Assembly: GCF_003334815.1 (NCBI RefSeq)
Contig: NZ_QOWO01000009.1
Strand: one strand, 5' to 3'
From: Escherichia coli
GTDB taxonomy: Bacteria; Pseudomonadota; Gammaproteobacteria; Enterobacterales; Enterobacteriaceae
Length of the DNA stretch: 64,000 bases
Position numbers: made by a program. Shown one piece after another: positions 43,543 through 46,500 of this stretch. Every line of letters begins with the position of its first letter. Positions within the stretch are counted from its first letter, which is position 1.

Positions 43543-46500
43543 TAATCCCCTTGCCCGGTCAAATGACCGGGCTTTCCGCTATCGTCCACGTCATCAAACG
43601 TCTTTAACCTTTGCGGTTAAAAATAATGCGACAACAGAAATAACCGCAATTACCCAGTAGACAGCAAAGTGCCCCCAACTTTGTGCAATTGCTCCCTGAA
43701 TAACGCCAGCCAGAATTACCCCGGTAGAAATACTGTTAGTAAATAAGGTGGTAGCTGCCCCCGCTCTTCCAGGCATTAAATCCTGAAACCATAGCATCCC
43801 AATACCCGCAACAATGCCGATAAATACAGCGTTAAAAAGTTGCAGCGTCATCAACGCCATACGGCTATTAAAGAAAATCAATCCGGTGTAAAACAGTACT
43901 CCTGCCGCCACTGCTATGACCATCATTCGCCGCTTACCATAACGTTTGACATAGTAGCCAGCCAGAATCATTGCTGGTATTTCCAGTCCAGCTGCCGTCC
44001 CCATCAGGAAACCCGCCAGTTTGTCTGGCAATCCTAACTCGCTACTGATCCACAACGGCATATCAATAATGTACATGGTGTTGCAGGTCCACATTAACGT
44101 CGAGGCGACAAATAACATCCGTACGTTACTATCCTGCCAGCCACCTTGCATTGATAAAGCATTTTCCGACGGCAGTTCTACCCGCGCCACAGACGGAAGC
44201 ATAAATGCAATCAATACCAGACTGAGTGTGAATATCCCGGCGGCAATCGAAAACATCACCGTAAAGCCGTAATTCAACGCCAGCATAAAGGCCAACGGTG
44301 GACCGATAACCCATGCCAGAGAAAGCTGCGCACGCATCACCGAGCTAAACATCACCACTTCTCGCGCCGAGTTATCCGCATATTCCCGCGCCAGAGCAAA
44401 TAACTGTGGCATTGCCGTATTGGCCAGAGATGCCAGAAGCACACCACAGGTGATAAGCGTCAGATAATGACGATTAAATGCAAACAATAGCGCATTGCCG
44501 ATAGCCATCAAACAGCAAAATATAATCAGTTTTCGCCGATCGCCCTGACTGTCAGAACGTTTTGCCAACCAGAGGCTTACGCCGATCCCAGCAATAGCAT
44601 TCACCGTATAAAAGAGGCCGATCCAGAAAGGTTGCGCGCCAACCTCACGACTCAGAAATAAGCTCAATGTAGGAGCCTGTAGCGCCCCGGCCACCCCCAT
44701 CATAAAAGCGACCAGCATAAATGCCGCGTAAACACCGTTCATACGGCGAGCCATCGTCATTATCCAGATCATACGTTCCCTTTTTAGCGCGGCGAGAATA
44801 AAAAAAACCAGCAGGTATAATCTGCTGGCGGGTGATTTTACACCAATACTCAGTCACACATGATGCAGGCAAGTCAACTTTCAGAATTGCGGTCATCCCA
44901 CTGCATCAGTCCTTCAAGCATGGTTAATCGTTGTGGGACGCTTAACCAACGCAACCAGCACAACTTCGCTGTCGCGGTAAAATAGTGCTGATAAAACTGA
45001 CGCATGGGGCACCCCCTTGCTTCATCGTTAGGAATTATTGACTTAATATAGGGAAAATAAAATTGCTGTCTTTTGCACAGGAGTTCCCCTTTTATGCCAT
45101 CTGCTCGTCTGCAACAACAGTTCATCCGCCTGTGGCAATGCTGCGAGGGTAAATCGCAGGACACAACGCTCAACGAACTGGCAGCGTTATTGAGCTGCTC
45201 GCGTCGTCATATGCGCACCCTGCTCAACACCATGCAGGATCGCGGCTGGCTGACGTGGGAAGCGGAAGTCGGGCGCGGTAAACGCTCGCGTCTGACATTC
45301 CTCTATACCGGGCTGGCGCTTCAGCAACAGCGGGCGGAAGACCTGCTGGAGCAGGATCGTATCGATCAACTGGTGCAGTTGGTTGGCGACAAAGCGACTG
45401 TGCGGCAAATGCTGGTTTCTCATCTGGGCCGCAGCTTCCGCCAGGGGCGGCACATCCTGCGCGTGCTCTACTATCGTCCGTTGCGTAATCTGCTACCTGG
45501 CAGCGCATTGCGCCGTTCCGAAACCCATATCGCCCGGCAAATCTTCAGTTCGCTAACGCGCATAAATGAGGAAAATGGGGAACTGGAAGCAGACATCGCC
45601 CACCACTGGCAGCAAATTTCACCGCTTCACTGGCGTTTCTTTTTGCGTCCAGGAGTCCATTTTCACCATGGTCGTGAACTGGAAATGGACGATGTGATCG
45701 CCTCTTTAAAACGAATCAATACGCTGCCGCTCTATTCGCATATTGCTGACATTGTGTCGCCGACGCCCTGGACGCTGGATATCCATCTCACGCAACCGGA
45801 CCGCTGGTTACCGTTACTGCTGGGGCAAGTTCCGGCGATGATCCTGCCGCGCGAATGGGAAACCCTCAGTAACTTTGCCAGCCATCCCATCGGCACCGGT
45901 CCGTATGCGGTGATTCGCAACAGCACCAATCAACTGAAAATTCAGGCATTCGATGACTTCTTCGGTTACCGGGCATTAATCGACGAAGTTAACGTCTGGG
46001 TTCTGCCGGAAATTGCCGACGAGCCAGCCGGAGGGCTGATGCTAAAAGGTCCACAGGGCGAGGAAAAAGAGATTGAAAGCCGCCTGGAGGAAGGTTGCTA
46101 CTATTTACTGTTCGACAGCCGCACCCATCGCGGGGCGAATCAGCAAGTCAGGGACTGGGTAAGCTATGTGCTTTCTCCAACTAATCTGGTCTATTTCGCT
46201 GAGGAACAGTACCAGCAACTGTGGTTCCCGGCTTATGGACTGCTCCCCCGTTGGCACCATGCCCGCACCATAAAGAGCGAAAAACCGGCTGGCCTGGAAA
46301 GCCTCACCCTAACCTTTTATCAGGATCACAGTGAGCATCGGGTGATTGCCGGGATCATGCAGCAGATTCTGGCAAGTCACCAGGTCACGCTGAAAATCAA
46401 AGAGATCGACTACGATCAGTGGCATACAGGAGAGATCGAAAGTGATATCTGGCTAAACAGCGCCAACTTTACCCTGCCGCTGGACTTCTCTGTTTTCGCA

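What the first reader, a model, noticed from the sequence alone, without database searches (positions are those of the whole stretch)
44800..45026. Dual-function sRNA SgrS with embedded SgrT ORF
The 227-nt SgrS sequence, its terminator and the 43-codon SgrT ORF are all present, with the expected sgrR<>sgrS-setA arrangement. This is a known system, listed because it is the one RNA regulator in the window that is also protein coding.
Basis: partly seen in the sequence, partly recalled or inferred. Interest (0 to 1): 0.3.

Follow-up and report, generated by a model that had tools for sequence, protein, structure and literature searches.

The report
E. coli K-12 SgrS/SgrT locus
This is the well-studied E. 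coli K-12 small RNA SgrS, which both silences sugar-transporter mRNAs by base pairing and encodes the 43-residue protein SgrT; it is identical to the reference strain and therefore ordinary.

Summary
Window 44800-45026 holds a full-length SgrS gene, and it lies on the minus strand. Rfam RF00534 scores 228.8 bits (E 2.7e-64) over exactly these coordinates. The 351 nt around it are 100% identical to E. coli K-12 MG1655 sgrS (b4577) and sgrT (b4662). All expected parts are present:
- the 43-codon sgrT ORF (45005-44874; Pfam SgrT, E 3.5e-13);
- the seed (SgrS nt 168-187), which pairs with the ptsG Shine-Dalgarno region (dG -27.8 kcal/mol; 0 of 300 shuffled leaders as good), with G176 and G178 intact;
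- the small hairpin, the terminator hairpin and an 8-U tail;
- divergent sgrR, and setA starting 27 nt downstream.

In 29 other enterobacterial species the ORF shows a coding signature and the terminator stays fully paired.

There are two qualifications. This allele carries the K-12-type 5' hairpin (G13) that hides the sgrT Shine-Dalgarno. Published work shows this hairpin keeps SgrT output low, so the coding function is weak in its native context. Also, SgrS is not strictly the only regulatory RNA here with a translated ORF, because the leu leader encodes leuL. The locus is already known and of low interest.

The parts
44800..45026 (-). sgrS, the 227-nt small RNA (nt 1 = 45026, nt 227 = 44800)
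   Evidence: Rfam RF00534 full-length match, 228.8 bits, E 2.7e-64. It is 100% identical to MG1655 b4577. The whole RNA folds at -79.2 kcal/mol, z = -3.43 against 200 shuffles.
45027..45093 (-). 67-nt sgrR-sgrS intergenic region holding the sgrS promoter and the SgrR-responsive sequences. The best-placed -10 candidate is AATAAT at 45039-45034 (-13..-8), and the -35 is poor.
   Evidence: The sequence was read directly. The promoter scan's hit (45072-45045) ends 19 nt from the +1, so its spacing is wrong. No clear palindrome was found. PMC2760817 and PMC4021124 report that this region is highly conserved and needed for SgrR activation. The operator itself was not mapped here, so this part is inferred.
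45006..45018 (-). sgrT Shine-Dalgarno (AAGGGGG, SgrS nt 9-15) buried in a 5' hairpin GGGG-GUG-CCCC (nt 11-21) that ends just before the AUG
   Evidence: The hairpin alone folds at -6.0 kcal/mol with G13 and -0.4 with A13. In the 5' 40-60 nt, the mean unpaired probability of the SD is 0.30-0.31 with G13 and 0.58 with A13. PMC2760806 shows genetically that this structure inhibits sgrT translation.
44874..45005 (-). sgrT ORF, 43 codons plus TGA (SgrS nt 22-153)
   Evidence: Translation. Pfam PF15894 SgrT, E 3.5e-13. Identical to MG1655 b4662. Coding signature across 30 species: 39.5% of differing codon pairs are synonymous in frame, against 11.4% and 11.5% in the other two frames.
44840..44859 (-). 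Base-pairing (seed) region, SgrS nt 168-187, including G176 and G178
   Evidence: The best local duplex is SgrS nt 167-188 with ptsG -29..-8, which covers the ptsG Shine-Dalgarno: dG -27.8 kcal/mol, against a mean of -16.0 (sd 2.6) for 300 shuffled leaders, none as good. G176 and G178 are present. Nt 166-186 are invariant in 30 enterobacterial species; only nt 174-187 were imposed by the search pattern. The region and key residues are as given in PMC7870926 and PMC4021124.
44831..44844 (-). Small stem-loop GGUG-UAAAAU-CACC (SgrS nt 183-196), preceded by a U-rich stretch; part of the Hfq-binding module
   Evidence: Predicted in the fold of the 3' 67 nt and in the centroid structure. Its position agrees with PMC7870926. 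Hfq binding itself was not tested.
44800..44829 (-). Intrinsic terminator: 8-pair hairpin (nt 198-220 by the scan; nt 199-219 in the literature) and a U8 tail (nt 220-227)
   Evidence: Terminator scan and fold with tail length 8. All 8 stem pairs are paired in 20 distinct sequences from 30 species; 6 pairs never vary and 1 changes compensatorily, G-C to A-U.
45094..46749 (+). sgrR, the divergently transcribed activator of sgrS
   Evidence: NCBIfam NF010149 (HTH-type regulator SgrR), 1126.8 bits against a cut-off of 476, residues 1-550. Corresponds to MG1655 b0069.
43594..44772 (-). setA, sugar efflux transporter, with its ATG 27 nt after the sgrS 3' end; expressed by read-through of the sgrS terminator
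   Evidence: TIGR00899, 602.6 bits. Corresponds to MG1655 b0070. The spacing was checked. Co-transcription and partial termination are reported in PMC9765468.

Best explanation
This is the E. coli K-12 sgrS gene, the dual-function small RNA of the glucose-phosphate stress response. According to the literature, sugar-phosphate accumulation leads SgrR, encoded divergently next door, to activate the weak sgrS promoter. The 227-nt transcript ends at an intrinsic terminator. The 8-U tail, together with the two 3' hairpins and a U-rich stretch, forms the Hfq-binding module. The single-stranded seed (nt 168-187) pairs with the ptsG mRNA across its Shine-Dalgarno sequence. This blocks translation and leads to RNase E-dependent decay; the same region also regulates manXYZ and yigL. 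The 5' part of the RNA is an mRNA for SgrT, a 43-residue protein that inhibits the PtsG transporter post-translationally. In this K-12 allele a 4-bp G-C hairpin hides the sgrT Shine-Dalgarno, so little SgrT is made and riboregulation dominates. Transcripts that read through the terminator serve as setA mRNA and not as sRNA. Shown here: sequence identity, family membership, ORF integrity and coding signature, seed-ptsG complementarity, predicted hairpins, gene arrangement. Taken from the literature and not tested here: induction by SgrR, Hfq dependence, RNase E decay, SgrT action on PtsG.
For: Rfam SgrS full-length hit, 228.8 bits. 351/351 identity to MG1655 sgrS/sgrT, and the first 25 kb of the window are 100% identical to K-12 strains. 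5,400 of 5,426 complete E. coli genomes carry the locus, once each, annotated sgrT with sgrR and, in the K-12-like alleles, setA. SgrT matches Pfam PF15894, E 3.5e-13. Coding signature: synonymous fraction 0.395 in frame against 0.114 and 0.115 out of frame, and third-position differences 6226 against about 3600 at positions 1 and 2. Seed-ptsG duplex -27.8 kcal/mol over the ptsG SD, 0 of 300 shuffles as good, z -4.5. Terminator with U8, 100% paired in 30 species. sgrR and setA identified by curated models. The mechanism is described in PMC4021124, PMC2760806, PMC2760817, PMC7870926 and PMC9765468.
Against: Nothing in the sequence contradicts this explanation. There are four limits. No expression or binding data can be obtained with these tools. 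Structural covariation is weak because the 3' module is nearly invariant: one compensatory change, with 25 of 500 shuffles reaching the observed score. The species set was found with the seed as the search pattern, so invariance of nt 174-187 is by construction. The codon test used a protein-guided alignment of related, non-independent sequences. NCBIfam has no HMM for SgrT, so its protein-family assignment rests on Pfam and on identity to b4662.
Confidence: 0.97

Rival explanations
1. In this K-12 allele SgrS is effectively only a base-pairing sRNA. The sgrT ORF is intact, but the 5' hairpin keeps it near-silent, so 'dual function' is latent here and not operative.
For: The G13 hairpin folds at -6.0 kcal/mol against -0.4 for A13, and roughly halves SD accessibility in the 5' 40-60 nt. 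PMC2760806 reports that K-12 SgrS lacking base pairing cannot rescue growth, that Salmonella SgrS makes more SgrT, and that hairpin-disrupting mutations raise SgrT output. Most E. coli genomes (3,857 of 5,426) instead carry A13, which gives a canonical AGGAGG SD.
Against: The ORF is intact and identical to one whose product inhibits PtsG when expressed ectopically (PMC2760806, PMC3901232). The G13 allele persists in 1,429 genomes without ORF decay. In the full-length fold the predicted SD accessibility differs little between the alleles, 0.34 against 0.36. A condition that opens the hairpin cannot be excluded.
Confidence: 0.35
2. The transcript's main role is as the leader of a setA mRNA. The 'terminator' would then be an attenuator that sets setA expression, and the sRNA would be a by-product.
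For: The setA ATG lies 27 nt after the sgrS 3' end on the same strand, with no evident promoter of its own between them. PMC9765468 reports co-transcription and substantial read-through (about 48% in a reporter system).
Against: About 2,158 E. coli genomes keep sgrS, with an identical 26-nt seed block and a terminator, but have no setA at all. The seed, the terminator stem and a downstream T-run are conserved across genera. Read-through products do not function as sRNA, and terminated SgrS is the active regulator (PMC9765468). The two roles coexist and do not compete.
Confidence: 0.05
3. The 43-codon ORF is a chance reading frame in a non-coding RNA.
For: Short ORFs are common. Several other ORFs of 30-99 aa overlap the same 227 nt on both strands. 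NCBIfam has no model for SgrT.
Against: Pfam SgrT match, E 3.5e-13. The frame is conserved in 29 other species, with the shared motif RQF(Y/W)..YF.AT...WL.....QRL..L.ELMQW and a 3.4-fold excess of synonymous differences in this frame over the other two. There is also published functional evidence (PMC2760806, PMC3901232).
Confidence: 0.01

Closest known systems
E. coli K-12 MG1655 sgrS (b4577) / sgrT (b4662)
   Same: Identical at all 351 aligned positions, including the promoter region, 5' hairpin, ORF, seed, terminator and the start of setA. The neighbours are the same.
   Different: Nothing. The window is simply the reverse complement of the reference orientation.
The second major E. coli sgrS allele (CFT073-like; example strain K56-43-un, L003)
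   Same: Same 227-nt length, same position next to sgrR, an identical 26-nt block around the seed, an intact 43-aa SgrT and a terminator.
   Different: About 91% identical. It has A13 in place of G13, giving a canonical AGGAGG SD with no occluding hairpin. The SgrT C-terminus differs (EELMQWEGSHSDY against EGLMQWDDRNSES). setA is absent, so sgrS abuts leuD. PMC2760817 reports that O157:H7 carries this allele with a mutated sgrT start codon.
Salmonella enterica SgrS
   Same: Dual-function, with the same seed, terminator stem and SgrT core motif.
   Different: It lacks the 5' hairpin and makes more SgrT (PMC2760806). It has 12 extra nt between the seed and the small hairpin. The mature SgrT is reported as 40 aa (PMC2760817).
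sgrT-less SgrS homologues (Yersinia, in the literature; here also Citrobacter freundii M-21, Yokenella, Atlantibacter)
   Same: Same seed and terminator; they match Rfam SgrS at 53-62 bits.
   Different: They are short (about 119-169 nt) and no SgrT-like ORF was found. They would be riboregulators only.
Other dual-function bacterial sRNAs (S. aureus RNAIII/hld, B. subtilis SR1/SR1P, Vibrio VcdRP; reviewed in PMC12612679, PMC8672173)
   Same: One transcript combines a base-pairing regulator with a small-protein mRNA, often acting on the same pathway.
   Different: They are unrelated in sequence, structure and targets. The resemblance is only one of concept. This comparison comes from the literature and my own knowledge and was not tested here.

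Membership tests
SgrS RNA (Rfam RF00534) | Covariance-model score above the curated gathering score, over the full model | tested here: met
   228.8 bits against a gathering score of 37, model positions 1-232 of 232, E 2.7e-64.
SgrS RNA (criteria of Horler & Vanderpool 2009, PMC2760817) | Located next to and divergent from an sgrR orthologue, between thiB (tbpA) and leuD | tested here: met
   sgrR at 45094-46749 (+) matches NF010149 at 1126.8 bits. The order leuC-leuD-setA-sgrS<>sgrR-thiB is seen.
SgrS RNA (criteria of Horler & Vanderpool 2009, PMC2760817) | A 3' region complementary to the ptsG translation initiation region, including G176 and G178 | tested here: met
   SgrS nt 167-188 pair with ptsG -29..-8 at -27.8 kcal/mol; 0 of 300 shuffled leaders did as well. 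G176 and G178 are present.
SgrS RNA (criteria of Horler & Vanderpool 2009, PMC2760817) | An inverted repeat followed by a T-run (intrinsic terminator), with at least 7 U as required for a functional Hfq-dependent sRNA | tested here: met
   An 8-pair stem followed by U8. The stem is 100% paired in 30 species. The requirement for at least 7 U is stated in PMC7870926 and PMC9765468.
SgrS RNA (criteria of Horler & Vanderpool 2009, PMC2760817) | A promoter not assignable to another gene, activated by SgrR under glucose-phosphate stress | not testable with these tools
   The 67-nt intergenic region is identical to K-12, and a plausibly placed -10 (AATAAT, -13..-8) is present. Activation and SgrR binding need experiments, and the primary paper (PMC1899371) is not held.
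SgrS RNA | Hfq binding and Hfq-dependent regulation | not testable with these tools
   The sequence module is present: a U-rich stretch, the small hairpin, the terminator hairpin and U8. Binding itself was not tested.
SgrT (Pfam PF15894) | Significant match to the family profile | tested here: met
   E 3.5e-13, 49.5 bits, residues 3-37 against model positions 1-36 of 46. NCBIfam holds no SgrT HMM, so 0 families were returned there.
SgrT (Pfam PF15894) | The ORF evolves as a protein-coding sequence | tested here: met
   Synonymous fraction 0.395 in frame against 0.114 and 0.115 in the shifted frames; differences by codon position are 3605, 3545 and 6226. Caveats: the alignment was protein-guided and the sequences are related.
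SgrT (Pfam PF15894) | The protein is translated and inhibits PtsG (EIICB-Glc) | not testable with these tools
   Literature only (PMC2760806, PMC3901232). In K-12 the native output is low because of the 5' hairpin (PMC2760806).

The most novel reading that the evidence does not exclude
The G13 hairpin that hides the sgrT Shine-Dalgarno might not be a simple loss-of-expression variant. It could be a conditional switch, opened by temperature, by a factor or by another RNA, that times SgrT synthesis separately from riboregulation. It is maintained in about a quarter of E. coli genomes (1,429 of 5,426), apparently all within the setA-containing haplotype: every A/G13-matching genome of the setA-less type examined carries A13, but linkage was not counted genome by genome. 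PMC2760806 explicitly leaves open whether the structure is regulatory.
Probability: 0.08. Interest if true: 0.35.

Novelty: already known. Interest (0 to 1): 0.05.

Why it matters
It matters little as a discovery, because this is the reference copy of one of the best-characterised bacterial small RNAs. The side observations from 5,426 complete genomes update the 2009 picture, which rested on about 15 strains, but they are population detail on a known system. Those observations are that the translation-occluding hairpin is a minority allele (26%) and that about 40% of strains lack setA next to sgrS.

Tried and rejected
(1) RNA duplex prediction with the full-length SgrS against 150 nt of ptsG gave meaningless hybrids with huge loops that scored no better than shuffles: 433 of 500 shuffles were at least as good. 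I replaced it with a local test, nt 164-190 against 30-nt windows.

(2) The generic sigma-70 scan placed a promoter at 45072-45045, 19 nt from the mapped 5' end. I rejected it because the spacing is wrong.

(3) A search for an inverted or direct repeat that could mark the SgrR operator in the 67-nt intergenic region found only an AT-rich 6-mer pair. The primary SgrR paper, PMC1899371, is not held, so the operator is left unmapped.

(4) NCBIfam returned nothing for SgrT; Pfam did.

(5) Covariation in the 3' hairpins is uninformative because the stems hardly vary. The small hairpin is misaligned in the second allele type (71% paired), which probably reflects a register shift and not loss of the hairpin.

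(6) Of the 52 pattern matches in the genome collection, 13 lie in unrelated phyla (Chryseobacterium, Bacteroidota, Nostoc and others) and had no SgrT-like ORF. The two I scanned (L011, L024) had no Rfam SgrS hit, so I treated this group as chance matches.

(7) The other ORFs that overlap sgrS on either strand (31-99 aa) have no supporting evidence and were not pursued.

(8) Two scripts failed because locus files had not yet reached the sandbox, and one failed on an over-strict ORF filter.

Full report
**1. The observation**

A scan of the whole window against Rfam 15 gives a full-length match to RF00534 (SgrS) at exactly 45026->44800 on the minus strand. It scores 228.8 bits against a gathering score of 37, E 2.7e-64, over model positions 1-232 of 232. 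This is far beyond chance.

**2. Source of the window and identity of the locus**

The first 25 kb of the window are 100% identical to E. coli K-12 strains, for example MG1655-derived records at 97,393-122,392 on the opposite strand. The window is therefore the reverse complement of MG1655 from about 58,393 to 122,392, and K-12 coordinate = 122,393 - window coordinate. Window 44760-45110 (-) aligns to NC_000913.3 77,283-77,633 with 351 of 351 identical positions. That record annotates sgrS (b4577) at 77,367-77,593, sgrT (b4662) at 77,388-77,519, sgrR (b0069) divergently upstream and setA (b0070) downstream. Of 5,426 complete E. coli genomes, 5,400 hold the locus, once each.

**3. Anatomy**

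SgrS nucleotide n corresponds to window position 45027 - n.

- *5' leader and sgrT.* The AUG is at nt 22 (window 45005) and the UGA ends at nt 153 (window 44874). The product is MRQFYQHYFTATAKLCWLRWLSVPQRLTMLEGLMQWDDRNSES, 43 aa. It matches Pfam PF15894 (SgrT) at E 3.5e-13. NCBIfam has no model for it.
- *5' hairpin.* The Shine-Dalgarno (AAGGGGG, nt 9-15) sits in a hairpin GGGG-GUG-CCCC (nt 11-21). The hairpin folds at -6.0 kcal/mol. Changing G13 to A, as in most E. coli, drops this to -0.4 and creates a canonical AGGAGG. In the 5' 40-60 nt the SD's mean unpaired probability rises from about 0.30 to 0.58. In the full-length fold the difference is small, 0.34 against 0.36.
- *Seed.* Nt 168-187 (window 44859-44840) are GUGUGACUGAGUAUUGGUGU, with G176 and G178 present. 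I fetched the MG1655 ptsG leader. The best local duplex is SgrS nt 167-188 with ptsG -29..-8, which covers the ptsG Shine-Dalgarno, at -27.8 kcal/mol. For 300 shuffled leaders the mean is -16.0 (sd 2.6) and the best is -26.2, so none is as good. The broken pattern around a central 8-bp block corresponds to the published '5-8-4' description (PMC2760817).
- *3' module.* It consists of a small hairpin GGUG-UAAAAU-CACC (nt 183-196), a terminator hairpin (nt 198-220 by the scan, window 44829-44807) and a U8 tail. This matches the map in PMC7870926: nt 183-196, 199-219 and 220-227.
- *Neighbours.* sgrR at 45094-46749 (+) matches NF010149 at 1126.8 bits. setA at 44772-43594 (-) matches TIGR00899 at 602.6 bits. 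The setA ATG lies 27 nt after the sgrS 3' end, as stated in PMC9765468.
- *Promoter.* The 67-nt sgrR-sgrS spacer is identical to K-12. The generic promoter scan's hit ends 19 nt from the +1 and is mis-spaced. AATAAT at -13..-8 (window 45039-45034) fits better, and the -35 is poor, as expected for an activator-dependent promoter (inference). I found no clear operator repeat, and the primary SgrR paper is not held.

**4. Comparative evidence**

One DNA-pattern scan of species-representative genomes, using the seed plus a downstream T-run, returned 52 loci. About 38 are Enterobacteriaceae: Escherichia, Citrobacter, Salmonella, Enterobacter, Superficieibacter, Siccibacter, Pluralibacter, Atlantibacter and Yokenella. 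The rest are in unrelated phyla. Those had no SgrT-like ORF, and the two I scanned had no Rfam SgrS hit.

In 29 species an SgrT-like ORF lies just upstream of the seed, with the shared motif RQF(Y/W)..YF.AT...WL.....QRL..L.ELMQW. Among differing codon pairs, 39.5% are synonymous in the sgrT frame, against 11.4% and 11.5% in the two shifted frames. Third-position differences (6226) exceed those at positions 1 and 2 (3605 and 3545). This is a coding signature. The caveats are that the alignment was protein-guided and the species are related.

In the 3' module, the 8 nt upstream of the imposed pattern are also invariant. All 8 terminator pairs are paired in all 20 distinct sequences. Six pairs never vary, one changes G-C to G-U (in K-12 itself), and one changes G-C to A-U compensatorily in Enterobacter chuandaensis. 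The structure is therefore supported by conservation, and covariation adds little: 25 of 500 shuffles reach the observed score.

**5. Mechanism**

Shown here:
- identity to the reference gene;
- membership in the RNA and protein families;
- an intact ORF under coding constraint;
- a seed that pairs with the ptsG ribosome-binding site;
- the terminator and Hfq-type 3' module;
- the SD-occluding 5' hairpin;
- the operon-like sgrS-setA spacing.

Taken from the literature:
- SgrR activates sgrS, and setA by read-through, under glucose-phosphate stress (PMC4021124, PMC9765468).
- SgrS with Hfq blocks ptsG translation and triggers RNase E-dependent decay. It also represses manXYZ and stabilises yigL mRNA (PMC4021124).
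- G176 and G178 are critical, and nt 168-181 suffice for repression (PMC7870926, PMC4021124).
- SgrT inhibits PtsG activity (PMC2760806, PMC3901232).
- Read-through transcripts are not functional as sRNA (PMC9765468).
- The K-12 5' hairpin inhibits sgrT translation (PMC2760806, PMC2760817).

**6.

First, the coding function in this particular allele is weak in its native context. Second, 'the one RNA regulator in the window that is also protein coding' is true only for trans-acting sRNAs with their own ORF. The leu leader at 38671-38820 (145.8 bits) is a cis-regulatory RNA whose function depends on translating leuL. FtsO is cut from inside the ftsI coding sequence.

**7. Population detail (side results)**

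A 41-nt query centred on nt 13 cannot seed a megablast match across a mismatch at that position. The K-12 G13 form is found in 1,429 of 5,426 genomes and the A13 form in 3,857. PMC2760817 had seen the hairpin in 3 of 15 strains.

Separately, 2,158 genomes carry an allele 90-95% identical whose similarity stops at the sgrS 3' end. In an example strain sgrS lies directly beside leuD with no setA. Its SgrT C-terminus differs, but a 26-nt block around the seed is identical.

**8. Verdict**

The finding is real, correctly located and correctly interpreted, and it is already known. Interest is low.

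Noticed in passing
window 17080-17169 (-): Rfam RF02797 'PssrA, plasmid-encoded Shigella sRNA A' matches at 105.5 bits. 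The site is chromosomal: MG1655 105,224-105,313, which is the 3' end of ftsA, the ftsA-ftsZ spacer and the first 9 nt of ftsZ. It lies opposite the annotated antisense RNA StfZ. In PLSDB only 9 'plasmids' of 0.4-4.9 Mb carry it, and these are evidently chromosome pieces. The family name is misleading for this locus.
   Followed up: partly
window 43594-44772 (setA); L003 2616-3460: setA shows a presence/absence polymorphism. About 2,158 of 5,400 E. coli genomes carry an sgrS allele 90-95% identical whose match ends at the sgrS 3' end. In strain K56-43-un sgrS abuts leuD and setA is absent. In that allele the SgrT C-terminus is EELMQWEGSHSDY, not EGLMQWDDRNSES.
   Followed up: partly
window 45014 (SgrS nt 13): There is a G13/A13 polymorphism in the sgrT Shine-Dalgarno. 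The K-12 G13 form (occluding hairpin, -6.0 kcal/mol) is in 1,429 of 5,426 complete genomes. The A13 form (AGGAGG, -0.4 kcal/mol) is in 3,857. Among the A13 hits, 348 have one further mismatch in the 41-nt query; these may include the O157:H7 start-codon mutants described in PMC2760817, which I did not check.
   Followed up: partly
L026 1072-1190; L027 10-137; L030 1986-2154; L031 2709-2875; L039 8437-8558: Short SgrS homologues (about 119-169 nt, Rfam 53-62 bits) in which no SgrT-like ORF was found occur in Citrobacter freundii M-21, Yokenella regensburgei and three Atlantibacter genomes. They resemble the sgrT-less Yersinia SgrS described in PMC2760817.
   Followed up: partly
window 38671-38820 (+): The leucine operon leader (Rfam 145.8 bits) encodes the leuL leader peptide. 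It is a second regulatory RNA in the window with a translated ORF, though it acts in cis.
   Followed up: partly
window 46783-46882 (+): A TPP riboswitch (65.9 bits) lies upstream of thiB, immediately after sgrR. It coincides with the annotated sRNA SroA in MG1655 at 75,516-75,608.
   Followed up: no
window 55633-55953 (+) and 10767-10960 (-): Rfam naRNA4 (CssrE) hits. Four copies with identical scores lie at an 85-nt period in the araD-araA spacer, and two copies lie near 10.8 kb. These look like REP/BIME repeat arrays.
   Followed up: no
window 11364-11433 (-): An Rfam STnc40 hit (84 bits) spans the 3' end of secA and the secA-mutT spacer, MG1655 about 110,960-111,029. It is not annotated as an RNA in MG1655.
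   Followed up: no
alignment A2 columns 22-33 (L013, L025, L035, L041, L045): Salmonella subspecies and some Citrobacter carry a 12-nt insertion (for example TAGGCTCTGGCC) between the seed and the small hairpin. This is consistent with the 22-nt spacer noted for Salmonella in PMC2760817.
   Followed up: no
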